Shown piece after piece: positions 31,346-64,000 of a DNA stretch of 64,000 bases. Source of the DNA: an uncultured bacterium (GTDB taxonomy: Bacteria; Patescibacteriota; Microgenomatia; Levybacterales; UBA12049); the NCBI GenBank assembly GCA_963826535.1, contig CAWGXL010000002.1:96654-160653 (forward strand). The letters are read 5' to 3'. The translations under genes and the position numbers were made by a program. Positions within the stretch are counted from its first letter, which is position 1; each line of letters begins with the position of its first letter. The notes beneath the pieces are model-generated. The model saw nothing but the letters and a program-made list of their open reading frames with translations. It was not told where the DNA came from and made no database searches.

Positions 31346-32650
31346 TCAATTTTTGTGATTTTTCAATGTAAAATTTACCCTAGATGATATCCCCTTGGTC
31401 AACGTTTGCATATCCTTACTGAAATGCTTCCAATCAATAAATTCAGAGGCGATGAAAAATAGGCTTACTACAGAGATCAGCTGAATCCGATACGTAAACC
31501 ACACATGTATATAAGAGTGGTTTGCAGCTATTAGATACCAGCCATAAGGCATAAAGCCAATAAGTATCCATGGGAGAATGTTTTTAATTTTCTGCTTATC
31601 AAAACGGAAATACTTTATCAAGAAGAGGAGAAGTAAAATTGCAAAAGACAAAACAATAACTTTATTGGTTTTATTATATCCAATCAGCTGAAAAAAGTTC
31701 AGCTTAATGACAGCAAGGTGGCTGAAGTTTGCGTCTGCCTGAGTAATGGTCCGGTTCATGATTTGATGTAATGCTGTCGAGATGGCTTGAGGAGTAAAAA
31801 ATAATTGAACCAACGCCCACTTGCTAAACCATAATGATAGATATCCCAGCGACCAGAAGAAAGCATGCAATAAAATGCGCATTATGTTTTTATCTACCGA
31901 TGCGGTAATAAGAAGTATAAGCCCCAGAGTCACAAGTGGTGCAGTTAAAAGATCAAAAAAAGTTGTTATTGCCCCAACAATAAAAAAGATGAGATAATGC
32001 AGCTGATTCTTATGCAGCGGTTTTTTAAGAAGGATTACAGCGCTGAGCAATGCGATTAAAAAAACAGCCGAGAATTGCATTGATCTGCTTAGATAGAAAT
32101 AATCCACTGAAAGGAGCCCCAAAACAAAAAAGGCTGTTTTCTTTCTTCCTAATCTTTTCCATGATAATGTGACGAATAACGCAAAAGCTACTAAATGAGC
32201 GGCGGTAAGGAGTATCCTGATCTCATTGTATGAAAATATGGTCAATAGCGGCCGCAAATAGACCAGATATCCGTGCCAGTATCTCTCATTTCCTGTTTGC
32301 GGCTTTGCGTTTTCTGTATATAACTTTTTTAAATTTGCTACTTGATTTACGCTATCAACTTCTGCTTCATACCTATAATTAACAAAAGCAGACCAGGCTG
32401 GCTTACTCTCGTCCACCGAATAAGCTGTATTTAGCATAATTGAATCCGTAAAGTTGTCGAGACCTATTTGCCGCCAAGGTACTCCGAAAACTGGATAAAT
32501 CCCCTCTTTTTCCATTACGCTTATTGACTTAGCAATATTACTTTCCAAATATGATGATGGAATCATACACGCCAAAATCAAAGATAGCGCAAAAGCTGAT
32601 AATAAAATAAGATAGGTTGCCAGCAATTGGTAGATAATTTTTACAATCAT
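31346..32650 (-). CDS. Polytopic membrane protein (GT-C-like / hypothetical)
   Basis: 434 aa with more than 10 TM helices. Confidence 0.5.
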   Translation of the reverse strand: MIVKIIYQLLATYLILLSAFALSLILACMIPSSYLESNIAKSISVMEKEGIYPVFGVPWRQIGLDNFTDSIMLNTAYSVDESKPAWSAFVNYRYEAEVDSVNQVANLKKLYTENAKPQTGNERYWHGYLVYLRPLLTIFSYNEIRILLTAAHLVAFALFVTLSWKRLGRKKTAFFVLGLLSVDYFYLSRSMQFSAVFLIALLSAVILLKKPLHKNQLHYLIFFIVGAITTFFDLLTAPLVTLGLILLITASVDKNIMRILLHAFFWSLGYLSLWFSKWALVQLFFTPQAISTALHQIMNRTITQADANFSHLAVIKLNFFQLIGYNKTNKVIVLSFAILLLLFLIKYFRFDKQKIKNILPWILIGFMPYGWYLIAANHSYIHVWFTYRIQLISVVSLFFIASEFIDWKHFSKDMQTLTKGISSRVNFTLKNHKN

Positions 32651-36139: not shown

Positions 36140-36617
36140 ATGAAAAAAGGTTCAACATTATTCTTAAAAGTAGTAATTTTACTTATCGCAATTGGCGTGC
36201 TTGCATGGCTGATTTGGTTTCCTCAAATTGAAGGAAGAGCTGCTAACTTAGATCTAATCAGTATTTATACAGATCCGCTTATTATCTATGGTTATATAGC
36301 TTCAATCCCATTTTTTGTTGCGTTATATCAGGCATTTAAGCTTTTAGGCTATATTGATAGCAATAAAGTTTTTTCTCAATCATGCAGTGAAAGCAGTGAG
36401 GAATATAAAATACTGTGCAATCATAATCAGTGGCTTAATTGTGCTAGGAATACTATACATAAGGTTATTTGTTAACGGTGACGACCCGGCAGGTCCTACT
36501 GCCTTGGGCATTTTTACTACTTTTGCTTCTATCGTAATTGCAACTGCTGCTGCTGTTTTTCAAAGACTTCTCCAAAATGCCGTAGACATAAAATCAGAAA
36601 ATGATTTAACTGTATGA
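36140..36617 (+). pseudogene. DUF2975-like membrane protein gene interrupted by a frameshift near a T6 run (about 36369-36374)
   Basis: Two overlapping ORFs (36140-36475 and 36354-36617) in different frames together give a ~160-aa 4-TM protein. It lies immediately upstream of a YozG-like XRE regulator. This is the classical DUF2975-YozG pairing. Confidence 0.5.
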
Positions 36618-37173: not shown

Positions 37174-37603
37174 TCATTTAGTAGGAGAAAATTCAATGAT
37201 CCACTCAATACCGTATTTATCTCGAAACATACCCGCATATGAGCCCCACGGACTGTCTCCTATAGATCCTTCTACTTCTCCTCCAGCCGAAAGGCCAGTA
37301 AATAATCTGTCCGCCTCTTCTTTACTTTCCGTACTTACCAAAATTTTGCTTCGATTTTCATGCTCATTTACTCGCCCCAAAACCTCCGGAACATCATTGG
37401 CTATCAGCATAGTACTGATACCAATAGGTAAGGCAATATGCATTATTTTATTTTCTTCTTTTTCTGGCACTGGGAATTCAGTCACTCGCAATGTCTTTGA
37501 AACGTACTACTTTCGCAAACTCTCCGCCGAATACTGATTTATAAAACGTAAATGCTTCTTCTGCATTACCGTTGAAGTTAATCCAAGGATTTATTGTTGC
37601 CAT
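37174..37603 (-). pseudogene. PhnB-like VOC-family protein gene with a frameshift near 37493
   Basis: The upstream frame encodes MATINPWINFNGNAEEAFTFYKSVFGGEFAKVVRFKDIASD* (PhnB N-terminal signature). The downstream frame continues ...PVPEKEENKIMHIALPIG...SPWGSYAGMFRDKYGIEWII. Confidence 0.55.
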
Positions 37604-37643: not shown

Positions 37644-37718
37644 TTTTATTTGGCTCCCCCGCGAGGACTCGAACCTCGAACCAATCGATTAACAGTCGAT
37701 TGCTCTACCATTGAGCTA
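37644..37718 (-). tRNA. tRNA-Asn (anticodon GTT), CCA encoded
   Basis: The reverse complement gives TCCCCTG-TA-GCTC-AATGGTA-GAGC-A-ATCGA-CTGTTAA-TCGAT-TGGTT-CGAGG-TTCGAGT-CCTCG-CGGGGGA-G-CCA. Confidence 0.8.
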
Positions 37719-37802
37719 CAGGGGAATGTCAAAAGTTCCTGCCGGGTTTGAAGCGGCGGAACGTATCCGTTATTTTATCATTAAAGAATGCATAAATCCA
37801 TA

Positions 37803-38711
37803 CTAAATCTTCCACCCAAGCTCTATCTTAATCTCCTTCACTGCTTTTTCATATTTGTCTTTCGTTAGCTGGTTATTTAATATGCAATACTTTTTACTAG
37901 TTAGTCCAAAGCAACCGATGCAATCAGAGCAGTTTGTTAGCCTTTCACTATAGTAACAATTTGAGCAACCTTGACTTGATACAAGAAACGCAGAGTCATA
38001 GCAGTCGGTTACCTCTATCGTTTCATAACATCGCTCGCATGCAGTTTTTATTACAGGGTTTCCATATGTGAAAAGGACATCCCAACAATTCTTTGTGTTA
38101 AAACCACTATTATACATATATCCGCAGTTTTCAGCAGTATAAGTATTAAAGCCCCAATAACAGTTCTTTGAATCATATATGTAATCTCCATATGGACTGT
38201 TTTCGCTATTAAGTTGAATGCTTGCAGGATGTGGAATCTGTTTTTTTAACTCAAACATTTGTTTTAGAATTTTTTCAGGTTTTTCCTTATTTAGTACTTC
38301 CACCTTTTTCAAATATTCATCTTTGGTATATTGCCGGTTAAATATACAATATTTTTTATGAGTTAGTGCAACACAACCAAAACAATCAGTGCAAGTGTTT
38401 AAAAATGATGAATAATGGCAATCAGTAGAGTTATTACAATTTATAAGATAAGTACAGCTATTACAATTATTGCAATCAATAGATTCATAACATTTTTCTG
38501 AGAATACCATCTGATAAGAATCTACGACCTTATTACCATTTGCCAATGTTGTATAGATAGAATCTGATAGTTCTAATACACAGAAGCAGTAAAAGCAATT
38601 CTTGATATTATCTACAAAATCTACGTATACACTATCAACAGCTGAGCGAATCATAGCAGACGGTACAGGAATCGATTTTTTCAGAAGTTCATATTTTTCC
38701 AGAAAATTCAT
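37803..38711 (-). CDS. Cys-rich protein, paralog B (internally duplicated CxxC-rich modules), unknown family
   Basis: MNFLEKYELLKKSIPVP.... Two modules each contain NC..C...LINCNNSTDCH.S..LN.C.DC.GC..L..KKYCI.N.Q.TK. C-terminus is LGWKI. Confidence 0.6.
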   Translation of the reverse strand: MNFLEKYELLKKSIPVPSAMIRSAVDSVYVDFVDNIKNCFYCFCVLELSDSIYTTLANGNKVVDSYQMVFSEKCYESIDCNNCNSCTYLINCNNSTDCHYSSFLNTCTDCFGCVALTHKKYCIFNRQYTKDEYLKKVEVLNKEKPEKILKQMFELKKQIPHPASIQLNSENSPYGDYIYDSKNCYWGFNTYTAENCGYMYNSGFNTKNCWDVLFTYGNPVIKTACERCYETIEVTDCYDSAFLVSSQGCSNCYYSERLTNCSDCIGCFGLTSKKYCILNNQLTKDKYEKAVKEIKIELGWKI

Positions 38712-38715
38712 AATC

Positions 38716-39624
38716 TTATACCTTCCACCCAAGCCCTTTTTTTATATCTATTAAAGCTTTTTCATATTGCACTTTTGTTAGCTGATTATTAAGTATACAA
38801 TATTTTTTATTCTTCAAACCCACACACCCGAAACAGTCAGAGCAGTTTAAGAGCTTTGTACCGTAGTGACAATTCATGCAACCCTCACTATATGTTAAAA
38901 AAGCGCAGTTATAACAAAAATCAGTATAAACATTCTCATAACATAGCTCTGCAAAACGATTAGTCTCCGGAGTCCCTCCAGTATGAAATATATCCCAACA
39001 ATGCTTCGTTAAACCACAGAAGTACATAAATCCGGAATTTTCAGAATAGTAACCTTGAAATGCCCAGTAACAGTTCTTTGAGTTATAGATATAATTACCA
39101 TATGGACAGTTCTCGCTATTGGATTGCTGACTTGCAGGATGAGGGATTTTAGGTTTAATTTCAAGCATTTGGTTAAGAATCTTTTGAGGATCTTGCTTTT
39201 TTAAATCCTCAACTTTTTTCAAATATTCATCTTTGGTATATTGCCGGTTAAATATACAATATTTTTTGTGATTTAACCCGACGCATCCAAAACAGTCAGA
39301 GCAAGAGTTTAATAAAGCGGAAAAATGGCAATCTGTAGAATTATTACAATCAATTAAATATGTGGAGCTATAACACTTAGTACTTTCAATACATTCGTAG
39401 CATTTTTCCGACTCAGTCACAAAATCACAATCTACAAGTTTATTCCCCCAACCATAATATGTATAAATACTATCAAAAAGCCTAGTTCCATCAAAGCAAT
39501 AATAGTCGTTCTTTCCTATATAGACAGCATCTACATATTCGCACTCAACTGTATTAGGACCGATTGTTATCGCTGGCACGGGAACAGATTTCTTCAGAAG
39601 CTCATATTTTTCAAGGAAAGTCAT
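38716..39624 (-). CDS. Cys-rich protein, paralog A (internally duplicated CxxC-rich modules), unknown family
   Basis: MTFLEKYELLKKSVPVP.... Same architecture as paralog B, with about 60% identity by eye. C-terminus is LGWKV. Confidence 0.6.
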   Translation of the reverse strand: MTFLEKYELLKKSVPVPAITIGPNTVECEYVDAVYIGKNDYYCFDGTRLFDSIYTYYGWGNKLVDCDFVTESEKCYECIESTKCYSSTYLIDCNNSTDCHFSALLNSCSDCFGCVGLNHKKYCIFNRQYTKDEYLKKVEDLKKQDPQKILNQMLEIKPKIPHPASQQSNSENCPYGNYIYNSKNCYWAFQGYYSENSGFMYFCGLTKHCWDIFHTGGTPETNRFAELCYENVYTDFCYNCAFLTYSEGCMNCHYGTKLLNCSDCFGCVGLKNKKYCILNNQLTKVQYEKALIDIKKGLGWKV

Positions 39625-39639
39625 TGTACCTAATTTTTA

Positions 39640-42000
39640 CTATAATCTTGCCCGTTGGGAGATTTCGGCTTCGATTACCTCGGCGTTGCGGCCGAATTTA
39701 AGTCTCGAGAGTTCTTTTATCAGGTCGGCGACTCTTACGTTGCTAAGTTCTTTTTCGCGGCTAATATCTTTAGTGGTATCAAGCGAGAAAGGCGGTACAG
39801 GCTCACCGTTTACCAGGGTTCTCATATAAGCATTATATTTGTCAACATTTATTAAATCTGTTTCATTAAACATCGGTTGGAATTCGCGCTGTAAATAGCT
39901 GGCATCATTGACGCCGACCCGGAATGAAGCAATTGTCCCCACGTTTCCGAAAATTGCGTTTTTAATCTCTTCCTCCATCTGGCCTATGAATTGATTTGCC
40001 ACGATAAGATTGAGGCGGTATTTACGGGCTTCGGAAAGGATTTGGGCAAAATCGGGAGTAGCGAAATTTTGGAATTCGTCAACGTAGAGGTAGAAGTCTC
40101 GTCGTTTGTCCATATCCATATCCTGGCGTGACATAGCGGCAACCAGTATCTTGGGAACTAAGACCAAGCCCAAAAAGCTGGCGTTTTCTTCGCCGATTTT
40201 TCCTTTAGATAAATTAATAAGAAGGATTTTTCTTTCATCCATAACTTTACGGAAATCGAATGAGCTTTTGGATTGGCCAATTATATTTCTTATCATTTTA
40301 TTTGTAACGAAACGGCCGAATTTAGAGACAATATAATCCATAACCTCGGATTTGTGAAAGTCGGATGTTGTCGCGATTTGATCAGTCCAGTAACGGCGGA
40401 TAATAGGATCCTGAACTTTGGGCAATAACTCCTGTACATAGGCTGGATCCGTAAGAATACGTACAACCTCAATAAAGGTGCTTCCCGGCTCGTACATGAC
40501 AGTTAACATAGCATTTCGAACAGCATGTTCAAAACGTGGTCCGATAATACCGGTTTTATTTGGATCGAAGAGCTTATACATTAACCCTATTATAGAGTTG
40601 GTAACAAAATGTTTTTGTTGTTCTGTCTGGGCATCAAGCATATTGAACCCCATCGGCCGCTCTAAATCTGATGGATCAAATAAAATAACTTCTTCGGCGC
40701 GGTTGGGCGGAATTTGGCGCAATACATCTTCTACTAAATCTCCATGTGGATCAACAACGGCTATTCCTTCGCCCGCGTGAATATCTTGCATGATCATACT
40801 TTTAAGGAATTCGCTTTTTCCGGTACCTGTTTTTCCGATGATATACGTATGCCTTCTTCTATCGTCTTGGCTAACATATACTCCACGATTGAGACCACGG
40901 AATGTGCTTTTGCCAAGGTAAAGACCGCTTGTCGGTAGATTGGATGGCGCCGGTGCACGTTTGGATGTCAGCCAGTGAATACCGGGCGTTGTTATACTTT
41001 TATTTGGGAAATGGAAGATGGTTGCGAGTTCCTCACTGGTATGTAATGATGACTGACCCCACAGCGGGAAGTATCTATAAATAAAATCATGCATAAAAAA
41101 ACCTTTCATGAGGTGTTTGTTTTTTCTGAAATAATTTTGACCGGCGTATTGACCGAAAGTATTGATAATATTATTTAAGTGTGATTGTGCTGCTTGTTTT
41201 GTAGTAGAACATACAACAATCCTTATAACAGTATCAAACCCAACTTTGTTGATAGAACCTTCAATGCCCTCAAGCTCTTTCGCATCGGTTTTATATTTAG
41301 CAGTTTCCGGGCTGGCTTCATTTTTTTTAGTTTTACTAATATATCCCCTCCCTGATTTTTTCCAGTGATCACCTGCAGGCCTGACCAATATTTGAATTGT
41401 CGCCCCTTCTCCTTCACCCATTTTTGCAAGGACAGAGGTAATCGATGACAACGGGTCAACCGGCATATCTTTGAAGACTCTTATAGGTATATAGGAACTA
41501 TTTTTCTGATGTAATGAAGCAAAAGCTACTTTTCCATTTTCAGTAAAGATTTGGTATTCAGTTCCTACTACGTTGCCCGCTTTCTGTTTTGCAGTTGGAT
41601 CATTGACCGGCACGACTTCAGCATCCGGATAGGAGCCATTAATTTGCTTTTCTATGAAATCCCGATGTTTATTCGGAACCCAGACATAGAAACGAATTTC
41701 ACCCGGAAGTCCTACGACTTCAAAAGACAGGTGAGGTTGTGTTTTAAAGAATTCGAGCCATCCGATTTCCCTAAGCGATGCAAGTCCCGAAAACATTTGC
41801 TCGGCGGCATCTATTTTGATCTCATTTTCCCGTGGAACTGTTACCTGCAATAGGGTCGAATTTAGTGACTCTTGTTCGCGGTTTCTATTCCGAAACCAGA
41901 TAAGCAATGTATATCCAAATAACCACAAAAACCCTATCGTAACTGAAATAACAATTAAAGTAATAATAACGGTTATAATGAGAGAATTTATATTATCCAT
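39640..42000 (-). CDS. Membrane-anchored P-loop ATPase of the type IV secretion coupling-protein superfamily (TraG/TraD/VirD4-like, with a TraM-recognition-type C-terminal region)
   Basis: N-terminal hydrophobic hairpin. Walker A YIIGKTGTGKSEF. Walker B LYVDEFQNF. C-terminal ...ANQFIGQMEEEIKNAIFGNVGTIASFRVGVNDASYLQREF resembles TraG-D_C. Confidence 0.65.
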   Translation of the reverse strand: MDNINSLIITVIITLIVISVTIGFLWLFGYTLLIWFRNRNREQESLNSTLLQVTVPRENEIKIDAAEQMFSGLASLREIGWLEFFKTQPHLSFEVVGLPGEIRFYVWVPNKHRDFIEKQINGSYPDAEVVPVNDPTAKQKAGNVVGTEYQIFTENGKVAFASLHQKNSSYIPIRVFKDMPVDPLSSITSVLAKMGEGEGATIQILVRPAGDHWKKSGRGYISKTKKNEASPETAKYKTDAKELEGIEGSINKVGFDTVIRIVVCSTTKQAAQSHLNNIINTFGQYAGQNYFRKNKHLMKGFFMHDFIYRYFPLWGQSSLHTSEELATIFHFPNKSITTPGIHWLTSKRAPAPSNLPTSGLYLGKSTFRGLNRGVYVSQDDRRRHTYIIGKTGTGKSEFLKSMIMQDIHAGEGIAVVDPHGDLVEDVLRQIPPNRAEEVILFDPSDLERPMGFNMLDAQTEQQKHFVTNSIIGLMYKLFDPNKTGIIGPRFEHAVRNAMLTVMYEPGSTFIEVVRILTDPAYVQELLPKVQDPIIRRYWTDQIATTSDFHKSEVMDYIVSKFGRFVTNKMIRNIIGQSKSSFDFRKVMDERKILLINLSKGKIGEENASFLGLVLVPKILVAAMSRQDMDMDKRRDFYLYVDEFQNFATPDFAQILSEARKYRLNLIVANQFIGQMEEEIKNAIFGNVGTIASFRVGVNDASYLQREFQPMFNETDLINVDKYNAYMRTLVNGEPVPPFSLDTTKDISREKELSNVRVADLIKELSRLKFGRNAEVIEAEISQRARL

Positions 42001-42006
42001 TTTTCT

Positions 42007-42534
42007 TTAAATTGAGGCTTGTTTATTTTGTTTTACATCTTTGACTGCATCCGGGTCGTATTTACACCATTGGTACATTATCATAGCCGCAAGCCAATGG
42101 GTTGAGTCTAAAAATTCAGTATTTTTTAACTTTTGCAGCGCTTGTGGATAATTCATTGGGAGGTGGATCGTACCGGTTGGAGTCTTGATAATTGGCGTTG
42201 AATCTACGGCAGGAGTAACTGCCGTAACCTTTTGAATTTCTTTTTCTAATTTTAACTCGCGGCCATCAGGACCATGTTCGACTATATTTTTTAATTCTTG
42301 CGGAATCATAACTTCGGGGGATAACGAAGTAGTTATTTCAGGCGTTACAGTTTCCGCGCTATGAGTGGATTCGGATACCGGCACAGCAATTGTTGGCTCC
42401 TGTTCTTTATTCCCGGTGATTACCGCCGGTTCAGGCATATCTCCGCTTTGTTGCCCAGCTGTTGCAGCCGGTTGACCCGTTATATTTGTTTGAGGTGGAA
42501 CTGTTTGTTTTTGTAATTGTTTTGGATCCTGCAT
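42007..42534 (-). CDS. Hypothetical protein with a disordered Pro/Thr/Gln-rich N-terminal half
   Basis: 175-aa ORF immediately upstream of, and co-oriented with, the ATPase. Confidence 0.45.
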   Translation of the reverse strand: MQDPKQLQKQTVPPQTNITGQPAATAGQQSGDMPEPAVITGNKEQEPTIAVPVSESTHSAETVTPEITTSLSPEVMIPQELKNIVEHGPDGRELKLEKEIQKVTAVTPAVDSTPIIKTPTGTIHLPMNYPQALQKLKNTEFLDSTHWLAAMIMYQWCKYDPDAVKDVKQNKQASI

Positions 42535-42613
42535 ATGTCTATCTTACCATGTGGATTTGAAATAAACAATTAAATTAGCCTGACACTTTCATTACAAAAC
42601 GATTATTATCTGC

Positions 42614-43831
42614 TTATTTGGTTAAAATATAATCAACAACCTCATCAGCAATCTCTCTTTTAGATTTATGTGAAAATTTTTTAGATTTCCCGTTCTTTGA
42701 AACTACTATAACTTCATTCGTGTCTTCATTAATACCTTGATTTGGCTTTCCCACATCATTAATAACAAGTATATCAATGGGCGTTTTTTTCAGTTTTTCG
42801 CGTGCTTCTATTACTAACTCTTTATCTGTTTTCTGCCATTCTGCTTTAAAAGCGATTAAATTAATTTTAGGATTGGCTTTTTTAATGTAAGTATATATTT
42901 TATCTCTTTTTTTTAACCTAATTGTTACCGCTTTTTCACTCGGTATTTTCCCATCCCATGCTGTGGGTTTAAAATCAGATACAGCAGCAGCATGAAAACA
43001 AATATCAGAATCTGGGGAATATTTTTTTACGAGTTCCGCGAGCTCATCAGCCGTTTCAAATTCATGTTGTTCTATCTGAAAACGTGGAATAACAGATGTT
43101 TTAGAACGAAGCAAAATTACCTTTGCCCCCCGTAAATAACAACTTTCCGCAATTGCCACTCCCATTTTCCCTGAACTTTTGTTTAAAATAAATCTGACAT
43201 CATCAATTTTTTCCATAGTTCCGCCGGCTGTTACTAATATTCTTTCCCCTTTTAATAATTCATTTCTTTTTAATAACCGCAATGACTCATCAAAAATTTT
43301 GGTAATATCTGTCAAGCGCCCGGCACCTTCATAACCACAAGCCAGTAATCCGGAATCAGGATTTATTATTTGATAACCTCTCCCTTTAAGTTTATGAACA
43401 TTTTCTTGCGTCGTCGGATTGTGCCACATATTCACATTCATAGATGGAAAAATAAGAATAGGAGCTTTGGTAGCAAGTAGGGTAGTGGCAAGAAAGTCAT
43501 CTGCAATTCCATGTGCCATTTTGGCAATAATATTTGCCGTAGCAGGCGCAACAAGAAATAAATCCGCTTTATCTGCAAGTTGAATATGGTCAACTTCTCT
43601 TTTTTCCAGTATTTCTTTGTAATCAAAGTCTTTGGAAAATAAATATCTATAAACTTTGTTGCCGGTTAGATTTTCAAATTCATCTGGCGAAATCATTTTT
43701 GTAGCATTATCCGTCATGATTACAAAAACTTTTATACCTAGTTTCTTAAAAGCAGTTATGAGCTCCTTGATCTTAAAAGCAGCAATTCCTCCACATATAC
43801 CAATAACAACAGTTTTCGTACGAAAATCCAT
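42614..43831 (-). CDS. coaBC: Bifunctional phosphopantothenoylcysteine decarboxylase / phosphopantothenate-cysteine ligase
   Basis: N-terminal flavoprotein domain (KTVVIGICGGIAAFKIKELI) and C-terminal DFP/CoaB domain. Length is 405 aa. Confidence 0.85.
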   Translation of the reverse strand: MDFRTKTVVIGICGGIAAFKIKELITAFKKLGIKVFVIMTDNATKMISPDEFENLTGNKVYRYLFSKDFDYKEILEKREVDHIQLADKADLFLVAPATANIIAKMAHGIADDFLATTLLATKAPILIFPSMNVNMWHNPTTQENVHKLKGRGYQIINPDSGLLACGYEGAGRLTDITKIFDESLRLLKRNELLKGERILVTAGGTMEKIDDVRFILNKSSGKMGVAIAESCYLRGAKVILLRSKTSVIPRFQIEQHEFETADELAELVKKYSPDSDICFHAAAVSDFKPTAWDGKIPSEKAVTIRLKKRDKIYTYIKKANPKINLIAFKAEWQKTDKELVIEAREKLKKTPIDILVINDVGKPNQGINEDTNEVIVVSKNGKSKKFSHKSKREIADEVVDYILTK

Positions 43832-43850
43832 AATAATAAATTATTATAAC

Positions 43851-44000
43851 CTACTTTCCGGGCTTCCAACCGCAGAGTGGGCAGGCTGTTAAATCGCCTT
43901 TTTGAATATTTAGTGTATCTTCATCATCCGCCACCCATCCACATTCTTTGCAAATGATTTTGAAACAAACCTCACATTTATTAGTTTTATTAGAGCTCAT
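43851..44000 (-). CDS. Small zinc-ribbon protein
   Basis: CEVC...CKEC...CPLC motifs. Start placed at the internal Met to avoid overlap with the upstream gene. Confidence 0.35.
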   Translation of the reverse strand: MSSNKTNKCEVCFKIICKECGWVADDEDTLNIQKGDLTACPLCGWKPGK

Positions 44001-44008
44001 ATTATAGC

Positions 44009-44863
44009 TTAACAAGCATACGGAGCACTGCACCCATTTACAGGACATTTAATCCTGCCATTACTTATAGTTGCGTCGATATCAGCTACACCACAAACCG
44101 GGCAATTTTTGCAGTGTAAAGTCTTCTCCCCAAATGAAATTTTTTCTGAATCAACAACACCTAATCTTGGAGTTACTGAATTTACTACAACAGTTTTACC
44201 TGAAGCTCCTCCGCCACCAGCACATCCTGGCTGTTCCGCAATAGCATTCAATATACTTCCAAAAGACTTCACATCAATCTGATTTGGCTTATACCACGTA
44301 TCGGGTTTTAATATAACTCTTTGTTTTTTTGCCGCTTCTTCGGTATAGTACAACTGAGACATACGAAGAATTGTCGCAGCAATAGCTTTTTGTAAATCAT
44401 GCTTGGTTAGTCCCTCTTGCAGACAATAAACCTCAAAATCTGCGATCATTTGTTGCGTTTTCTCATTGAATTGATATAGCCTTTCGCCTTGCAATATATC
44501 CTTATATACATCCTCCCATCCTGTTTTTTCCTGTGTGACTGAGTTTTTAAAAGCATGAGTTGATCTAACTTTCTCTAAGACTCCCACCACATCACTCACG
44601 CTTTGTATCTCTTCACTCTCTCCCGGTTTTATAGCAGCAACTGCCTCTACATATTCTTCAATCGATGCCATGACCGGAAGTCTTTTTCCTGTAAGCCTGT
44701 AAATAACTTCACGACTTTCCTGATGTGTAAAGTTTGTTTTCACTGTATAGTTAGTAACTGAATCAGCTTTCTTCTGCATTATAAAAAAGTATGAATCGGG
44801 ATATGTTATTTGTTCACCACTATCTGTTGTTAATCCGGAATCTCCTTTTGGACTTGTCATCAC
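44009..44863 (-). CDS. Hypothetical protein with a C-terminal Cys-rich (zinc-ribbon-like) tail
   Basis: 284 aa, ending ...HCKNCPVCGVADIDATISNGRIKCPVNGCSAPYAC. Confidence 0.5.
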   Translation of the reverse strand: MMTSPKGDSGLTTDSGEQITYPDSYFFIMQKKADSVTNYTVKTNFTHQESREVIYRLTGKRLPVMASIEEYVEAVAAIKPGESEEIQSVSDVVGVLEKVRSTHAFKNSVTQEKTGWEDVYKDILQGERLYQFNEKTQQMIADFEVYCLQEGLTKHDLQKAIAATILRMSQLYYTEEAAKKQRVILKPDTWYKPNQIDVKSFGSILNAIAEQPGCAGGGGASGKTVVVNSVTPRLGVVDSEKISFGEKTLHCKNCPVCGVADIDATISNGRIKCPVNGCSAPYAC

Positions 44864-44876
44864 AGCTATTGACCCA

Positions 44877-45479
44877 TCAGGAGTATCTTTCGGAAAGAAA
44901 AAACTTTTTCATTGCCATTATGGATCTCTTTACTGATCCGTTTCTTTCATTTTCTGAAACAATCTCTTCCATATCTGAATATGAATTTCTTGAGCGCTCT
45001 GATTTTCCATAAGAACGATCTTCAAGCCTATTTGGATCTATAGGATCTCTAAAATATTTAGTAGGATAAACCAGATGATTTGATAAATATTCAAGCTTAA
45101 AGCCTAATAAGTCTTTTTCTGTTTTCTGAACCCAGTCCGACATATCTCCCGAACTATTTAGATCTTTTATTAAAGCGAGTTGTAATTTCATAATAAAACC
45201 GACTTCTGATTTTTTTCCCCGTAAATTGTACCAATCCTTAGGTAACTTTTCTTTTAGCCAGTTGTAGTCAAAGTGGCTGATATAATCTGCTAACGTACTA
45301 TTCTCGGTATGCTTTTTTTCTTTTACCTCTTCCTTTTTTCGTTGGCGGTAATTATCTAAATAAAATATTTTTGCGTCATGAATAGGTGGTCGGGGATACT
45401 CAATAATCCTTGTACGCGCAGTATTTCTTACTTTGAATAATTGTTCATCCTGGGGTAAATATCTCGCTGCTTCTACCAT
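44877..45479 (-). CDS. Hypothetical protein
   Basis: 200-aa charged protein. No motif recognised. Confidence 0.45.
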   Translation of the reverse strand: MVEAARYLPQDEQLFKVRNTARTRIIEYPRPPIHDAKIFYLDNYRQRKKEEVKEKKHTENSTLADYISHFDYNWLKEKLPKDWYNLRGKKSEVGFIMKLQLALIKDLNSSGDMSDWVQKTEKDLLGFKLEYLSNHLVYPTKYFRDPIDPNRLEDRSYGKSERSRNSYSDMEEIVSENERNGSVKRSIMAMKKFFLSERYS

Positions 45480-45502: not shown

Positions 45503-46045
45503 TTACTTTTTAATCCACTTTGTTTCTCTCTTTTTTTCTCTGAAATTAACGTATCGTGCAATGGTAAAGAAGAGATCGGATAGGCGGTTGAGATAAATCA
45601 TAATTGCAATATCTACATCTTCATTCTTCATCAAAGCAACAACGCGGCGTTCTGCTCGTCTGGCAATAGTACGGCATATATGTAATTGGGAGCCTGTTTT
45701 TCCTCCGCCCGGTAAAATAAAATTTTTAAGTGGCGGGAGCTTAATTGTCAATTTATCGATTAACTTTTCAAAATCCAGCGGACGTTTCTCAAGTCCGGGG
45801 ATCGGCTCCGCTTCCGGTGTAGATAAAGCTGATCCTATTTCAAATAGATCGTGCTGAATCTCTTCAAGTTCTTTTTTGAGTTGTTTAAATTTTTTTGGAG
45901 AAAGAAATGCAAGAGCAACACCAATGGAACTATTGAGCTCATCAATTGTGCCGTATGTTTCAACGCGCGCGTTTGCTTTAGAAACTCTAGTCCCATCGAT
46001 AAGCGAAGTTTTCCCTTTATCTCCGGTACGGGTATAGATTGGCAT
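45503..46045 (-). CDS. pduO: ATP:cob(I)alamin adenosyltransferase, PduO/MMAB type
   Basis: MPIYTRTGDKGKTSLIDGTRVSKANARVETYGTIDELNSSIG is the PduO-type N-terminal signature. The internal Met was chosen as the start. Confidence 0.75.
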   Translation of the reverse strand: MPIYTRTGDKGKTSLIDGTRVSKANARVETYGTIDELNSSIGVALAFLSPKKFKQLKKELEEIQHDLFEIGSALSTPEAEPIPGLEKRPLDFEKLIDKLTIKLPPLKNFILPGGGKTGSQLHICRTIARRAERRVVALMKNEDVDIAIMIYLNRLSDLFFTIARYVNFREKKRETKWIKK

Positions 46046-46078
46046 AATAGTTAAAAGTTTAAAGTACAAAATTAAAAG

Positions 46079-46627
46079 TTAAACTTGCGTATTGGCAGCT
46101 TGTAAGTTTTTTCTTAATCTCAAGGCTGCTTCGTAACCCATAAAGAATAAACCTGTATAGAGGAAGTCGCCGATTAATGTATTTCTAAAAAAAGGAATTG
46201 CTGCCACAAAACAGTCAATCAGCCCTGAAAATGTTTTAGGGTACATGGTACCAATTAGCCAAACACCAAAGTTAGTAATGAGATAAAAAAGTAAGGAAGA
46301 CAAAAGAGTGGCAATTATAATGTTTGTTGTTTTTTTGTGTTTTTTTAGCCAAATACCAATGCAGCCGATAAGTAAAAAACTGCCATAGACAAACACCATC
46401 TTTTCCATACCGTAAAAACCGAGAAATAGATCTGAAAAGAATAAAGCTAAGAGGGGAATTATGATAGCGTATTTTTTGTCCAGGTAAGCTCCGCCGAATA
46501 AAGCCATAGCGGCGATTGGAGCGATGTTGGGTGGGTGCGGAAGCAAGCGCAATACTGCGGCAATAGTGATTATTACCAGTGGACTAATGAAGTAGCTAAT
46601 TTTCAATTTAAAATTTTTAATTTTCAT
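46079..46627 (-). CDS. ECF-transporter S-component-like membrane protein. Candidate cobalamin/corrinoid substrate-capture subunit by context.
   Basis: 182 aa, 5-6 TM helices. LPHPPNIAPIAAMALFGGAY resembles ECF S-component N-termini. It lies between DUF4430 and pduO. Confidence 0.45.
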   Translation of the reverse strand: MKIKNFKLKISYFISPLVIITIAAVLRLLPHPPNIAPIAAMALFGGAYLDKKYAIIIPLLALFFSDLFLGFYGMEKMVFVYGSFLLIGCIGIWLKKHKKTTNIIIATLLSSLLFYLITNFGVWLIGTMYPKTFSGLIDCFVAAIPFFRNTLIGDFLYTGLFFMGYEAALRLRKNLQAANTQV

Positions 46628-46635
46628 TTTAGTAT

Positions 46636-46762
46636 TTCAAATTACTCAGATTATTGTCATTCCCCTGCACAGGGGAATCCAGAAGATATAAATAACTTTT
46701 CCTTATAACAAGTAAATGTAATAACTTGTTTTACCTCCTGGATTCCCGCGTTCGCGGGAATG
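46636..46762. repeat. Pair of imperfect inverted hairpin repeats flanking about 65 bp (REP/MITE-like or bidirectional terminator)
   Basis: Left: ttgtcattcccctgcacaggggaatccag. Right: cctggattcccgcgttcgcgggaatgacaa. Each is itself a hairpin and the two are mutually inverted. The centre has a further palindrome aacaagt...acttgtt. Confidence 0.5.
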
Positions 46763-46777
46763 ACAACTGCTTATGAG

Positions 46778-47152
46778 TTAATATTTTTCTATTTTCCATT
46801 CAATCGTATCTGTGTCTTGCGTTTGGTACTCTGCCGGTCCAACTTCTGACATTTTGCTGTTTATGTAAAATGCCCAGTATTCATGCTTGGAATTATCGGC
46901 CTCGCGGCCATTGATAGTTGTGACCAGGCCTGACTTGTCTTGTTTAATTCCATATTTTTGCTTGAGGAGTGTAAGAGCGTCTTTGCCTTTTTGGCCTTTA
47001 TATGTATAGTTTTGGGAGTGGGTTTCTTGTTGAACTGTTTTAGTAGGAGCAATTGTAGGTTTTGGCTGTATAAATAGCGGGACAGAAGAAATTAAAGCTA
47101 CGAATATAATAATTAAGAAGATATTTTTTTGGTTTAGAAATGTTTTTCTCAT
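46778..47152 (-). CDS. DUF4430-domain protein (transcobalamin/intrinsic-factor beta-domain-like, putative B12-binding)
   Basis: Signal-anchor, then ...GKDALTLLKQKYGIKQDKSGLVTTINGREADNSKHEYWAFYINSKMSEVGPAEYQTQDTDTIEWKIEKY fits the DUF4430 pattern (G..A...L......G.fv..InG.....W.fyvN....vGa..y.l.dgD.i.w.y). Confidence 0.65.
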   Translation of the reverse strand: MRKTFLNQKNIFLIIIFVALISSVPLFIQPKPTIAPTKTVQQETHSQNYTYKGQKGKDALTLLKQKYGIKQDKSGLVTTINGREADNSKHEYWAFYINSKMSEVGPAEYQTQDTDTIEWKIEKY

Positions 47153-47335
47153 AAAAAAATCCCTCTCGTTTTTTGTCCCGAGAAGGATACGTAATTTTGA
47201 TTCCAGTCAGGCACAAGTCTATGCCTGACCCCGCTCTGCGGGGCTCGGGACGAAATAATGCTCTCTAGTTTTCTGGCTATACAGTTGCGGCTCAGCCATG
47301 GATTTTCACCATGATTGCCTAAAAGAGCGTTCTAA
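47153..47335 (-). ncRNA. Putative cobalamin (B12) riboswitch in the 5' leader of the DUF4430 gene
   Basis: The minus strand reads ...UAGGCAAUCAUGGUGAAAAUCCAUGGCUGAGCCGCAACUGUAUAGCC.... This resembles the conserved aAGGGAAnccGGUGaaAAUCC...CCGCnACUGUa core. It is followed by hairpins GUCAGGCAUAGACUUGUGCCUGAC and CCCCGCagaGCGGGG. A final helix CCUUCUCGGG/CGAGAGGG sequesters the SD GAGAGGG 8 nt before the AUG. Confidence 0.5.
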
Positions 47336-62860: not shown

Positions 62861-62901
62861 TTCGTCTCCTTCGAGCTCGAGTGCTTCAGGGTCATCGGAC
62901 C

Positions 62902-63729: not shown

Positions 63730-64000
63730 TCTGGCCCGTCCGTCGCCGGTCCTCACGCCACGCGCCAAGCGTGACCCGCGGGCCGGCCCTAGGCCTGCGG
63801 CCTGGCGATTCCTTGCAGCCCTAAATTTTAGGGCTGCGGGATACGCGGACGGCGCCGCGCAACCTATTCAGAATTGGAGGTCATCCGCCTGTCCAGCGTA
63901 AAGTATGGCGCGAGTGAGGAAAACGCCCGCACCATGAACCTGCTCCAGACCTGCATACCTGCCGACGCGCGCAGCGTCTGCCGTCTTACGGAGCCGGATA

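What the first reader, a model, noticed from the sequence alone, without database searches (positions are those of the whole stretch)
37644..43831. tRNA-Asn-proximal operon: coaBC, hypothetical, T4 coupling-protein-like ATPase, two Cys-rich paralogs
All five genes are co-oriented on the minus strand with short gaps and end about 85 nt from tRNA-Asn. The 786-aa ATPase has a membrane hairpin, Walker A and B boxes, and a TraG/TraD-type C-terminal region. No other T4SS or conjugation genes (VirB4, relaxase, integrase) are visible nearby.

It may be a DNA-translocation component repurposed in a small-genome organism. Alternatively it may be the decayed remnant of a tRNA-inserted mobile element.
Basis: partly seen in the sequence, partly recalled or inferred. 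Interest (0 to 1): 0.55.

Follow-up and report, generated by a model that had tools for sequence, protein, structure and literature searches.

The report
Orphan coupling ATPase with Cys-rich paralogues
An ATPase descended from plasmid-conjugation "coupling proteins" is a fixed, highly conserved chromosomal gene in these ultra-small (CPR) bacteria, not mobile-element debris, and the two cysteine-rich genes beside it belong to a large unnamed protein family that elsewhere forms long gene arrays, often next to sister ATPases.

Summary
The five co-oriented genes and tRNA-Asn are real, but they are not one conserved operon and not a decayed tRNA-inserted element.

- **Fixed unit:** only h175 + ATPase is fixed. 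h175 sits directly upstream in 44 relatives, usually with a -4 to +6 nt gap.
- **Conserved context:** the pair lies in a gene order (B12 unit, ~470-aa Zn-ribbon protein, Zn65, h175, ATPase) shared across Levybacteria/Microgenomatia. Orthologues are 71-82% identical.
- **Local additions:** coaBC and the Cys-rich pair are absent from all 57 related loci.
- **No mobile-element signs:** no att repeat, integrase or GC anomaly.

The ATPase is a DUF8128 + VirD4-like coupling-protein homologue. On Bacillus and Embleya plasmids its homologues sit in real conjugation modules. Orphan coupling proteins in Patescibacteria were already reported in 2025.

New here: CysA and CysB are core-only members of an uncharacterised CPR family of at least 5,800 proteins (zinc finger, period-3 Cys/Ser core, zinc finger). 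The family forms tandem arrays of up to 11 genes. These arrays are about 12-fold enriched for paralogous, mostly soluble T4CP-like ATPases (P about 1e-16). In one locus the trio lies inside an origin-proximal T4SS cluster. Function is inferred only.

The parts
39640..42000 (-). 'Type-1' DUF8128 + VirD4-like (T4CP-like) ATPase, 786 aa
   Evidence: Pfam T4SS-DNA_transf 38.7, TrwB_AAD_bind 34.2, DUF87 29.4 and TraG-D_C 26.3 bits, all above their gathering scores. Precomputed PF26449/DUF8128 on homologues. More than 6,800 homologues, with the top 120 at 71-82% identity over the full length. It falls in the tight syntenic clade of the tree.
41887..42000 (-). N-terminal membrane anchor (residues 1-38): one long hydrophobic helix
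   Evidence: The AF2 model has a helix at residues 2-38. Kyte-Doolittle maximum 2.89 at residue 7. It is the least conserved part, 28% identity. 53 of 61 type-1 ORFs have such a segment.
40921..41880 (-). DUF8128 N-domain (residues about 41-360)
   Evidence: No hit in the local Pfam copy, but PF26449 is precomputed on homologues. Searched alone it finds 1,921 representative clusters, always starting about 40-100 residues into the protein. 68% identity among orthologues. The model here is low confidence.
39766..40920 (-). P-loop ATPase domain (residues 361-745), with Walker A at 40813-40836 and Walker B at 40075-40092
   Evidence: Motifs located. Foldseek matches DotL, Cagbeta, TrwB and HerA over this half, and VirB4/TrwK over the full length. 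85% identity among orthologues.
40276..40623 (-). All-helical insertion between Walker A and B (residues 460-575), in the position of the T4CP all-alpha domain
   Evidence: Helices only in the AF2 model, with block pLDDT from about 50 to 83, mostly 74-83. It is the most conserved region, 90% identity across 42 orthologues.
42007..42534 (-). h175: constant partner of the type-1 ATPase, with a low-complexity P/T/Q/E-rich N-part and a conserved C-terminal motif (...lP...s..Wla.l..y.w.k)
   Evidence: A jackhmmer-detectable homologue lies directly upstream of the ATPase in 44 type-1 loci, typically with a -4 to +6 nt gap. It is never upstream of type-2 ATPases. The gap here is 6 nt. No Pfam, NCBIfam, PHROG or PADLOC hit. 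No hydrophobic segment.
38716..39624 (-). CysA: core-only member of the CPR 'zf / period-3 Cys-Ser core / zf' family, 302 aa, 25 Cys
   Evidence: 1,014 homologues, none with a Pfam domain. Two invariant Cx2Cx2Cx8C motifs. Cys or Ser at every third residue. AF2 pLDDT 71.6 with two beta-rich repeat modules. No significant PDB fold match, only weak beta-helix hits. 15-nt gap after the ATPase stop.
37803..38711 (-). CysB: tandem paralogue of CysA. The likely start is the ATG at 38711 (302 aa), not the TTG at 38732.
   Evidence: 61% identical to CysA, aligning from its residue 8. DNA-level tandem repeat with 910-913 nt spacing.
42614..43831 (-). coaBC (bifunctional PPC synthetase/decarboxylase): a lineage-specific insertion between Zn65 and h175
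   Evidence: TIGR00521 395.5 bits against a cut-off of 219.7. Absent from this position in 57 of 57 related loci. The closest relative, L003, has a different 2-kb insert (rhodanese, ArsR, thioredoxin) at the same site.
43851..44048 (-). Zn65: small Cys-rich zinc-ribbon-like protein, a conserved upstream neighbour
   Evidence: tblastn hits at 40-72% identity upstream of the ATPase in 24 related loci. Only a weak FYVE_2 Pfam hit.
44009..45479 (-). h200 + h284: one conserved 436-576-aa protein with a C-terminal Zn ribbon in relatives, split here by a frame change
   Evidence: Single ORFs in L003, L007, L020, L024, L025, L031, L037 and L058. The frame change follows an A5/T6 homopolymer run.
45503..47330 (-). 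Upstream B12 unit: AdoCbl-II riboswitch (47258-47330), DUF4430 (46778-47152), DUF6580 (46079-46627), PduO-type adenosyltransferase (45503-46069). This is conserved syntenic context, not part of the ATPase module.
   Evidence: Rfam RF01689 40.4 bits against a gathering score of 36.5. Pfam hits. DUF6580-CobAT lies upstream of the ATPase in most related loci.
37651..37725 (-). tRNA-Asn(GTT), at a synteny breakpoint and not an att site
   Evidence: ARAGORN and Rfam. No second copy of its 3' end with up to 3 mismatches. Relatives have tRNA-Ile(TAT) after the ATPase instead.

Best explanation
What it is (shown). The region is a co-directional gene string assembled from parts of different ages.

1. 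The ancient, fixed part is a two-gene module. It consists of a small soluble protein (h175) with a 6-nt gap to (probably translationally coupled with) a 786-aa 'type-1' ATPase. The ATPase has a single membrane-anchor helix, a DUF8128 domain, and a VirD4/TraG-type P-loop motor with an all-alpha insertion. It descends from the coupling protein (T4CP) of monoderm (MPF-FATA-type) conjugation systems. In Levybacteria/Microgenomatia it is a chromosomal, syntenic, strongly purified gene without a relaxase or VirB4 beside it.
2. coaBC is a local insertion at a permissive site between Zn65 and h175.
3. CysA and CysB are a local tandem pair. They belong to a large, unnamed CPR protein family (treble-clef zinc finger, period-3 Cys/Ser core, treble-clef zinc finger) that elsewhere forms long tandem arrays preferentially next to paralogous T4CP-like ATPases.
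4. tRNA-Asn simply marks the synteny breakpoint after the ATPase.

How it most likely works (inferred). The type-1 ATPase forms a membrane-tethered hexameric motor, as T4CPs do. Its highly conserved all-alpha and DUF8128 surfaces, together with h175, bind a conserved ligand. The motor hands a macromolecular substrate (protein rather than relaxase-DNA, since relaxases are lacking) to the relaxase-less Patescibacteria T4SS encoded elsewhere, or acts as a T4SS-independent exapted translocase. The Cys-rich proteins are soluble and probably metal-binding. They are the best candidates for clients or adaptors of this ATPase family. Their position 15 nt downstream of the type-1 gene would give co-expression.
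For: - **Identity and ancestry:** Pfam T4CP domains score above their gathering cut-offs. Full-length 24-31% identity homologues occur on Bacillus, Streptomycetaceae and haloarchaeal plasmids. On NZ_CP035190 and NZ_CP108778 the homologue sits next to a replication-relaxation relaxase, a VirB4-like ATPase, PrgI and NlpC/P60. Foldseek finds VirB4, DotL, Cagbeta, TrwB and HerA. An all-helical block lies between Walker A and B.
- **Core gene, not mobile:** there are more than 6,800 homologues, the top 120 at 71-82% identity. In 57 species-level loci the order DUF6580-CobAT-h470-Zn65-h175-ATPase is conserved, and CobAT...ATPase extends to Gottesman- and Woesebacteria. The gene sits in a tight, short-branched clade. 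No att repeat, flanking repeat, integrase or GC deviation was found.
- **h175 coupling:** 44 loci have it, with gaps mostly -4 to +6 nt.
- **Conservation pattern:** the all-alpha block is 90% identical, the ATPase domain 85%, the N-domain 68% and the TM helix 28%.
- **Cys-rich family:** 1,014 hits for the core-only form and at least 5,837 for the full-length form, all 'hypothetical'.
- **Arrays:** arrays reach 11 genes, with 4-18 nt gaps in L087.
- **Association:** 22 ATPase ORFs lie in 918 kb retrieved with the Cys core alone, against 1.8 expected (P about 1e-16). 13 of 25 loci of at least 15 kb carry one. 21 of 25 ATPase ORFs listed lie within 450 nt of a family gene and 23 of 25 are co-oriented. 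10 of 62 visible array ends have an ATPase within 1.5 kb, against roughly 0.2 expected (my estimate).
- **T4SS link:** in L065 the order is PrgI, dnaN/dnaA, rnpA, ATPase, zf93, Cys-rich, yidC, VirB4. In L045 a type-1 orthologue lies about 4 kb from a PrgI-VirB4 pair.
- **Literature:** orphan T4CPs are common in Patescibacteria and exaptation has been proposed (PMC12102498). The role of the T4SS is 'completely unknown' (PMC11665869).
Against: - The window is the only one of 58 type-1 loci with Cys-rich genes beside the type-1 ATPase. All array-linked ATPases belong to other, long-branched clades. The local adjacency could therefore be a chance insertion at a breakpoint.
- Most array-linked (type-2) ATPases lack any N-terminal hydrophobic segment. 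This does not fit a membrane translocation motor.
- Most arrays have no ATPase at their visible ends: 52 of 62 ends, and 12 of 14 clusters with both ends visible.
- Arrays are not enriched near VirB4: 1 locus in 918 kb, about the chance level.
- The T4CP of Southlakia epibionticum was reported as non-essential while other T4SS genes are essential (PMC12102498).
- NCBIfam equivalog cut-offs for VirD4-like and TraD families are far from met: 60 against 250 bits.
- The ATPase model is only moderate (pLDDT 60), and the DUF8128 part is poorly predicted.
- No transcript, interaction or localisation data exist.
Confidence: 0.6

Rival explanations
1. Decayed remnant of a mobile element (ICE or genomic island) that integrated at tRNA-Asn. 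The ATPase would be its surviving coupling protein, and coaBC and the Cys-rich genes its cargo.
For: A T4CP-type ATPase lies near a tRNA gene. CysA/B and coaBC are lineage-specific. One relative, L001, has a tyrosine recombinase about 0.5 kb after the ATPase and its tRNA-Ile.
Against: - The ATPase and its upstream neighbours are syntenic in 57 species-level genomes, and the ATPase is the best-conserved gene of the neighbourhood.
- No copy of the tRNA 3' end exists elsewhere in the 64 kb, and there are no flanking repeats.
- No integrase, relaxase or transposase is among the classified ORFs.
- GC is 0.35-0.40, like the flanks.
- The ATPase is separated from tRNA-Asn by different genes in the closest relative, and it abuts tRNA-Ile in most others.
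Confidence: 0.03
2. The type-1 ATPase is fully exapted and independent of any T4SS. It would be a membrane-tethered FtsK/HerA-class motor working with h175 on DNA (uptake, segregation or repair) or on another cellular substrate. The Cys-rich pair would be an unrelated insertion at the synteny breakpoint after the gene.
For: - Nearly all Patescibacteria T4CP homologues are far from virB4, and the one tested was dispensable while the T4SS was essential (PMC12102498).
- Conservation is extreme, including the all-alpha block, which suggests an invariant ligand such as DNA or a core protein.
- 57 of 58 type-1 loci have no Cys-rich neighbour.
- Downstream of the ATPase is a rearrangement hot spot.
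- There are PADLOC mad8, DndH and HerA similarities.
Against: - T4CP genes are often encoded away from virB4 even in working systems (PMC12102498).
- L045 places a type-1 orthologue about 4 kb from PrgI-VirB4.
- The Cys-rich family is strongly enriched next to paralogues of this same ATPase family. A chance landing precisely 15 nt downstream and co-oriented has a prior of roughly 1-2%, which is my estimate from gene counts.
- The protein has no FtsK gamma domain, and its FtsK_SpoIIIE score is below the Pfam cut-off.
Confidence: 0.3
3. The DUF8128 ATPases and the Cys-rich/zinc-finger arrays form a cytoplasmic conflict (anti-phage or anti-host) system. Many fast-diverging paralogous 'sensor' or binder proteins would work with a HerA/T4CP-like ATPase effector. 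The window would hold a reduced version.
For: - Type-2 ATPases are mostly soluble and fast-evolving.
- The arrays are large, and their members are only about 27-36% identical to CysA.
- PADLOC mad8 hit at 9e-15, plus HerA and DndH hits.
- A full-length homologue occurs in SPO1-like phages, and phrog_5156 matches at 6e-85.
- Zinc fingers suggest intracellular nucleic-acid or protein binding.
Against: - No known defence effector domain was found in the arrays.
- The window's ATPase is the slow-evolving, membrane-anchored, syntenic type, which is atypical for defence genes.
- L065 embeds the trio in a T4SS/origin region.
- The PADLOC hits cover only the generic ATPase core.
Confidence: 0.1

Closest known systems
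Type IV coupling proteins of monoderm (MPF-FATA) conjugative plasmids, e.g. the DUF87 / 'type IV secretory system conjugative DNA transfer family' proteins of B. licheniformis plasmid NZ_CP035190 and Embleya plasmid NZ_CP108778
   Same: The architecture is alignable from about residue 50-80 to about 745-766: DUF8128-type N-domain plus a P-loop motor with the TraG-D_C region (24-26% identity, E 1e-45 to 1e-62). The Pfam T4CP domains are shared.
   Different: The plasmid genes sit beside a relaxase, VirB4, PrgI and a cell-wall hydrolase. The window gene has none of these. It is chromosomal and syntenic, and has its own partner h175.
Orphan VirD4-like T4CP homologues of Patescibacteria (Quinonero-Coronel et al. 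2025, PMC12102498)
   Same: Same phenomenon: 5,713 T4CP homologues in 2,918 genomes, only 148 near virB4, almost no relaxases, and exaptation suggested. The window gene is one of these.
   Different: In what I read of that paper (term search), it does not separate the slow, TM-anchored, h175-coupled clade from the soluble array-linked clades. Nor does it mention the Cys-rich/zinc-finger arrays or DUF8128. No paper in the library mentions DUF8128.
Canonical Gram-negative T4CPs with solved structures (TrwB R388, DotL, Cagbeta)
   Same: The nucleotide-binding domain fold with an all-alpha insertion. Foldseek E 3e-9 to 1e-7 and TM(target) 0.44-0.50 over about 400 columns.
   Different: Sequence similarity is limited to the P-loop region. 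There is one TM helix, where (from general knowledge) canonical T4CPs have two. An extra 300-residue DUF8128 domain makes the full length resemble the two-domain VirB4/TrwK layout (E 5e-12, TM about 0.4).
T7SS EssC/EccC loci and Bartonella/Legionella effector repertoires. This is an analogy only, from general knowledge.
   Same: An FtsK/HerA-superfamily ATPase encoded next to variable tandem sets of paralogous small proteins that lack Sec signals.
   Different: There is no homology to WXG/LXG or BID proteins. Most array-linked ATPases here are soluble, and secretion is untested.

Membership tests
Type IV coupling protein (VirD4/TraG/TraD superfamily) | P-loop NBD of the FtsK/HerA/T4CP class with Walker A and B | tested here: met
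   GKTGTGKS at 389-396 and YLYVDE at 637-642, invariant in 43 orthologues. Foldseek finds TrwB, DotL and Cagbeta.
Type IV coupling protein (VirD4/TraG/TraD superfamily) | Curated profile scores: Pfam T4SS-DNA_transf, TrwB_AAD_bind and TraG-D_C above gathering score | tested here: met
   38.7 against 20.1, 34.2 against 20.5, and 26.3 against 22 bits. The margins are modest and each hit is partial.
Type IV coupling protein (VirD4/TraG/TraD superfamily) | Membership of a named equivalog (VirD4-like CD1115, TraD SXT/TOL/F) | tested here: not met
   Best is NF045973 at 60.4 bits against a cut-off of 250. TraD families score 17-53 bits against cut-offs of 366-647.
Type IV coupling protein (VirD4/TraG/TraD superfamily) | All-alpha domain inserted in the NBD | tested here: inconclusive
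   The AF2 model shows only helices at 460-575 between Walker A and B, with block pLDDT about 50-83. The domain was not superposed separately on the TrwB all-alpha domain.
Type IV coupling protein (VirD4/TraG/TraD superfamily) | N-terminal membrane anchor | tested here: met
   One long hydrophobic helix at residues 2-38. Canonical T4CPs have two TM helices (general knowledge).
Type IV coupling protein (VirD4/TraG/TraD superfamily) | Genomic or functional link to a relaxase and a VirB4-type T4SS | tested here: not met
   None among the classified ORFs of the window or in 56 of 57 related loci. The exception is L045, with PrgI-VirB4 about 4 kb away. The rest of the genome could not be searched.
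Type IV coupling protein (VirD4/TraG/TraD superfamily) | Substrate recruitment to and transfer through a T4SS | not testable with these tools
   Needs genetics or biochemistry.
VirB4/TrwK | VirB4 family profiles (TIGR00929; CagE_TrbE_VirB / AAA_10 / P-loop_TraG) | tested here: not met
   TIGR00929 scores 20.6 bits against 643. No VirB4 Pfam hit, whereas the true VirB4 of L065 hits P-loop_TraG and AAA_10. Only the two-domain layout resembles VirB4 in Foldseek, with TM about 0.4.
FtsK/SpoIIIE DNA translocase | FtsK_SpoIIIE profile above cut-off; gamma (KOPS-binding) domain; multi-span N-terminal domain | tested here: not met
   PF01580 scores 20.7 bits against a cut-off of 24, over 30 residues only. 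No gamma-domain hit, and a single TM helix.
HerA helicase | HerA equivalog score; HAS-barrel; NurA partner | tested here: not met
   NF040819 scores 14.7 bits against 970. The DUF87 domain hit (29.4 bits) is shared by the whole superfamily. No NurA-like neighbour.
tRNA-integrated genomic island / ICE remnant | Direct repeat of the tRNA 3' end (attL/attR) | tested here: not met
   Only the tRNA itself matches, with up to 3 mismatches, in the 64 kb.
tRNA-integrated genomic island / ICE remnant | Integrase, relaxase or transposase, or their remnants | tested here: not met
   Neighbours are RibD_C, DUF2975/HTH_26, glyoxalase and DUF7790.
tRNA-integrated genomic island / ICE remnant | Patchy presence among relatives and compositional deviation | tested here: not met
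   The ATPase module is present and syntenic in 57 of 57 loci. GC is like the flanks. Only coaBC and CysA/B are patchy.
CoaBC (Dfp) | TIGR00521 equivalog; Flavoprotein + DFP domains | tested here: met
   395.5 bits against 219.7. PF02441 and PF04127 both match over their full length.
CPR 'zf_Tbcl / Cys-Ser core / zf_Tbcl_2' array family (unnamed) | Cys-rich core with two Cx2Cx2Cx8C motifs and period-3 Cys/Ser positions | tested here: met
   CysA and CysB match the core HMM at 2e-142 and 8e-135. The motifs are invariant and the periodicity is clear.
CPR 'zf_Tbcl / Cys-Ser core / zf_Tbcl_2' array family (unnamed) | Flanking treble-clef zinc fingers (fused, or as a separate zf92 gene) | tested here: not met
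   The zf92 query gave no reported tblastn hit on the window. The gaps are only 15 nt between the ATPase and CysA and 4 nt between CysA and CysB. The window has the core-only form.

The most novel reading that the evidence does not exclude
The zinc-finger/Cys-rich proteins (at least 5,800 members, arrays of up to 11 genes, 2-3% of some ~1-Mb genomes) are the clients of the DUF8128 coupling-type ATPases. They would be either cargo delivered by the relaxase-less Patescibacteria T4SS to host cells, or adaptors that define what the ATPases recruit. The window would then capture the one case where such clients have been placed directly behind the conserved, membrane-anchored type-1 ATPase. That would give the first concrete candidates for what the essential but functionally 'completely unknown' CPR T4SS handles.
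Probability: 0.15. Interest if true: 0.85.

Novelty: new variant of a known kind. Interest (0 to 1): 0.58.

Why it matters
Patescibacteria make up a large share of bacterial diversity and live attached to host cells. Their T4SS is essential in the one species tested, but what it transports is unknown (PMC11665869). Orphan coupling-protein homologues are known to be common (PMC12102498), but they have no partners or substrates assigned.

This analysis gives three testable handles:
1. A sharply defined, highly conserved h175 + type-1 ATPase module in Microgenomatia.
2. A second class of soluble, fast-evolving paralogues.
3. A large, unannotated zinc-finger/Cys-rich array family that is statistically linked to those ATPases and, in one genome, embedded in the origin-proximal T4SS region.

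If the link is functional, it names candidate clients for a major unexplained machine of 'microbial dark matter'. If it is not, the arrays are still a conspicuous, undescribed investment of tiny genomes. For the window itself, the practical result is that the mobile-element reading can be dropped.

Tried and rejected
- **Mobile-element reading:** rejected. There is no att repeat, no flanking repeat and no integrase, and the ATPase module is syntenic.
- **Promoter and terminator scans:** counts equal those of shuffled sequence, so they do not define transcription units.
- **PDB sequence search:** only the P-loop region matches DotL and TrwB, which is too little to classify.
- **CysA fold search:** no significant hit (best E 0.018, TM below 0.2). 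'Beta-solenoid-like' is therefore only a description of a moderate model.
- **Cys-occupancy covariation:** the aim was to tell disulfide pairs from four-ligand metal sites. The correlations are diffuse and lineage-driven, so the test is inconclusive.
- **C-terminal secretion signal:** I considered the conserved ELGW tail of CysA/B as one, then dropped the idea. In full-length family members this motif is internal and followed by a zinc finger.
- **Paralogues on large contigs:** locating the window's own contig and the 894-kb contig with 28 paralogues failed, because they are not on record. The genome-wide arrangement in Levybacteria is therefore unknown.
- **VirB4 enrichment near arrays:** not found (1 locus in 918 kb).
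- **Universal array-ATPase linkage:** rejected. Only 10 of 62 visible array ends and 2 of 14 fully visible clusters have the ATPase.
- **Taxon labels:** many related MAG records carry implausible labels ('uncultured Gammaproteobacteria', 'Limnocylindrales' and others). I relied on the consistent Levybacteria/Microgenomates titles.

Full report
**1. Observation**

- The window holds the minus-strand ORFs described: coaBC (42614-43831), a 175-aa hypothetical (42007-42534), a 786-aa ATPase (39640-42000) and two Cys-rich paralogues (38716-39624 and 37803-38711/38732).
- tRNA-Asn(GTT) lies at 37651-37725.
- Gaps are short: 79, 6, 15, 4 and 77 nt.
- The same orientation and spacing continue upstream through Zn65, a split 200+284-aa gene, a PduO-type adenosyltransferase, DUF6580 and DUF4430, up to an AdoCbl-II riboswitch at 47258-47330.
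- GC is uniform, 0.35-0.40, across the region.

**2. The ATPase**

- *Profile hits.* Residues 375-703 pass the Pfam gathering scores for T4SS-DNA_transf, TrwB_AAD_bind, DUF87 and TraG-D_C. All NCBIfam equivalogs are far below their cut-offs; the best is VirD4-like CD1115, 60 bits against 250.
- *Motifs.* Walker A is at 389-396 and Walker B at 637-642.
- *N-domain.* Homologues carry a precomputed PF26449 (DUF8128) on the N-terminal 300 residues. No paper in the searchable library mentions DUF8128. Searched alone, this domain finds about 1,900 representative clusters. It nearly always starts 40-100 residues into proteins that are either 800-1,100 aa long or about 400 aa long.
- *Model.* The AF2 model is moderate (pLDDT 60). 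It shows one long N-terminal helix, not a hairpin, and an all-helical block (460-575) between the Walker motifs.
- *Fold search.* Foldseek finds VirB4/TrwK over the full two-domain length (E 5e-12, TM about 0.4). DotL, Cagbeta, TrwB and HerA match over the ATPase half.
- *Homologues outside CPR.* Full-length homologues at 20-31% identity occur in SPO1-like Bacillus phages and on Bacillus, Streptomycetaceae, haloarchaeal and Sulfolobus plasmids.
- *Conjugation context.* On B. licheniformis plasmid NZ_CP035190 and Embleya plasmid NZ_CP108778 the homologue sits beside a replication-relaxation relaxase, a VirB4-like ATPase, PrgI and NlpC/P60. The protein therefore descends from the coupling protein of monoderm conjugation systems.

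**3. Core gene, not mobile debris**

- More than 6,800 homologues were scored, and the best 120 are 71-82% identical over the full length.
- A scan of one genome per GTDB species returned 57 loci, mostly titled Levybacteria/Microgenomates.
- Mapping the window's genes onto them shows DUF6580-CobAT-h200/h284-Zn65-h175-ATPase conserved in Levybacteria. CobAT...ATPase extends to Gottesman- and Woesebacteria.
- coaBC and CysA/B occur in none of the 57 loci.
- A jackhmmer-detectable h175 homologue lies directly upstream of the ATPase in 44 type-1 loci, typically with a -4 to +6 nt gap.
- The closest relative, L003 (81% identity), has a different 2-kb insert (rhodanese, ArsR, thioredoxin) exactly where the window has coaBC. 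It also has 5.8 kb of unrelated genes between the ATPase and tRNA-Asn.
- Most relatives have tRNA-Ile(TAT) within about 100 nt of the ATPase stop, followed by a tRNA-Met pair.
- There is no second copy of the tRNA-Asn 3' end in the 64 kb and no flanking repeats.
- No integrase, relaxase or T4SS gene is among the classified ORFs.
- Within the protein, the all-alpha block is the most conserved part (90%) and the membrane helix the least (28%).

**4. Literature**

- Quinonero-Coronel et al. 2025 (PMC12102498) report 5,713 VirD4-like T4CP homologues in 2,918 Patescibacteria genomes. Only 148 are near virB4, and relaxases are almost absent.
- They note that the T4CP was dispensable in Southlakia epibionticum while other T4SS genes were essential, and they suggest exaptation.
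- A 2024 perspective (PMC11665869) calls the role of the T4SS 'completely unknown'.
- The existence of orphan T4CPs in CPR is therefore already known.

**5. The Cys-rich genes**

- *Sequence features.* CysA and CysB are 61% identical. Each is a duplication of two halves (36% identity, E 2e-24) and contains about 8% Cys. No library recognises them.
- *Paralogue expansion.* CysA has 1,014 homologues.
- *Conserved motifs.* Only two Cx2Cx2Cx8C motifs are invariant; other Cys positions alternate with Ser. Cys or Ser occupies every third residue over long runs.
- *Structure.* The AF2 model (pLDDT 71.6) shows two beta-rich repeat modules joined by helices. Foldseek gives no significant match, and the weak hits are all beta-helices.
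- *Metagenome loci.* A metagenome scan with the core alignment returned 80 loci. In most CPR lineages the family protein is about 550 aa: zf_Tbcl, then the core, then zf_Tbcl_2.
- *Arrays.* Genes are packed head-to-tail in arrays of up to 11, with 4-18 nt gaps in L087.
- *Family size.* The full-length form has at least 5,837 homologues in Gracilibacteria, Peregrinibacteria, Peribacteria and others, essentially all 'hypothetical'.
- *Literature.* I found no paper describing these arrays.

**6. Link between the family and the ATPases**

- In L060 and L061 (Beckwithbacteria) the order is ATPase, zf92, then 2-3 core-only genes.
- In the 80 loci retrieved with the Cys core alone (918 kb, 242 family genes) there are 22 T4CP-like ATPase ORFs in 18 loci, against about 1.8 expected at two per Mb (Poisson about 1e-16).
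- 13 of 25 loci of at least 15 kb carry an ATPase. 21 of 25 ATPase ORFs listed lie within 450 nt of a family gene and 23 of 25 are co-oriented.
- In L065 the trio lies in an origin-proximal T4SS region: PrgI, dnaN/dnaA, rnpA, ATPase, zf93, Cys-rich, yidC, jag, rnhA, VirB4. In L045 a type-1 orthologue is about 4 kb from PrgI-VirB4.

*Caveats.*
- An NJ tree puts all array-linked ATPases in long-branched clades, separate from the tight syntenic clade that contains the window's gene.
- Most array-linked ATPases lack an N-terminal hydrophobic segment.
- Only 10 of 62 visible array ends, and 2 of 14 fully visible clusters, have an ATPase nearby.
- Arrays are not enriched near VirB4.
- The window is the only type-1 locus of 58 with Cys-rich neighbours.

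**7. Interpretation**

*Shown.*
- The ATPase is a chromosomally fixed, strongly conserved descendant of a monoderm conjugative coupling protein.
- It has a constant small partner, h175.
- coaBC and the Cys-rich pair are local additions at two rearrangement-prone sites.
- The Cys-rich pair belongs to a large uncharacterised CPR array family that is genomically linked to paralogues of the same ATPase family.

*Inferred.*
- The ATPase forms a hexameric, membrane-tethered motor.
- It binds ligand through the conserved all-alpha and DUF8128 surfaces together with h175.
- It either hands substrate to the relaxase-less T4SS or has a T4SS-independent role.
- The Cys-rich proteins act as clients or adaptors.

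The mobile-element reading is rejected. The main live rival is full exaptation, with a coincidental Cys-rich insertion. A cytoplasmic conflict-system reading of the arrays is also open.

**8. Verdict**

Its 'repurposed' reading agrees with published work, and its 'element remnant' reading is refuted. What raises interest above routine is the unreported Cys-rich/zinc-finger array family and its statistical link to T4CP-like ATPases. That link makes the question 'what do CPR coupling proteins and T4SSs act on?' more directly testable.

Interest is 0.58. Novelty is a new variant of a known kind.

Noticed in passing
window 60200-64000: GC jumps from about 0.35 to 0.68 within roughly 200 nt at about 60.3 kb. 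A class-V aminotransferase ORF (59808-61076, minus strand) matches Pfam only in its low-GC part, so it is cut at the junction. Beyond the junction lie complex-I/[NiFe]-hydrogenase-like subunits (Complex1_49kDa/30kDa, Oxidored_q6+Fer4) at about 69% GC. This looks like a chimeric assembly join or a concatenation of two organisms.
   Followed up: partly
window 45503-47330 (minus strand): An AdoCbl-II riboswitch (RF01689, 40.4 bits against a gathering score of 36.5) precedes DUF4430, DUF6580 and a PduO-type cob(I)alamin adenosyltransferase. This is a B12 uptake/salvage unit in a CPR genome. DUF6580 may be its membrane transporter component.
   Followed up: partly
window 44009-45479; 37174-37603; 36140-36617: Three genes within 10 kb are split by frame changes, while relatives or the Pfam profile indicate one ORF each. 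They are the h200/h284 Zn-ribbon protein (the change follows an A5/T6 run), the glyoxalase-fold gene after tRNA-Asn (intact 142 aa in L003), and DUF2975. This suggests indel errors of a long-read assembly, or recent pseudogenes.
   Followed up: partly
L004-L057, about 20-100 nt (up to about 3 kb in a few) after the ATPase stop: In most type-1 loci a tRNA-Ile with anticodon TAT follows the ATPase, and in many a tRNA-Met(CAT) pair lies a few kb further on. This is a conserved tRNA neighbourhood. The tRNA-Ile(UAU) gene is a relatively unusual way of reading AUA.
   Followed up: no
window 41450-41464 and 42467-42481: A perfect 15-nt inverted repeat (AACGGGTCAACCGGC / GCCGGTTGACCCGTT). One arm lies in the ATPase N-domain coding region and the other in the h175 coding region, 1,002 nt apart. 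It may be chance.
   Followed up: no
L045 4541-5914: A Fic/DOC-domain protein lies between the PrgI-VirB4 pair and the type-1 ATPase orthologue. Fic proteins are classic T4SS effectors in other bacteria, from general knowledge.
   Followed up: no
phage records H1-H12 (e.g. SPO1 FJ230960.1 92864-94891, gp27.4): SPO1-like Bacillus phages encode a near-full-length homologue of the DUF8128 ATPase at about 21% identity. phrog_5156 (unknown function) matches the window protein at 6e-85.
   Followed up: partly
L117 1358-4600; L125 1972-5639; L106: In some array loci the DUF8128 domain (with its TM segment) and the ATPase domain are separate adjacent genes. Two different ATPase subtypes can occur within one array region.
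   Followed up: partly
window 26723-28801, 10567-12243, 31346-32650: Three large ORFs (692, 558 and 434 aa) have no Pfam family. The first lies in the lowest-GC stretch of the window (0.31-0.33), next to GT87- and PMT_2-like glycosyltransferases.
   Followed up: no
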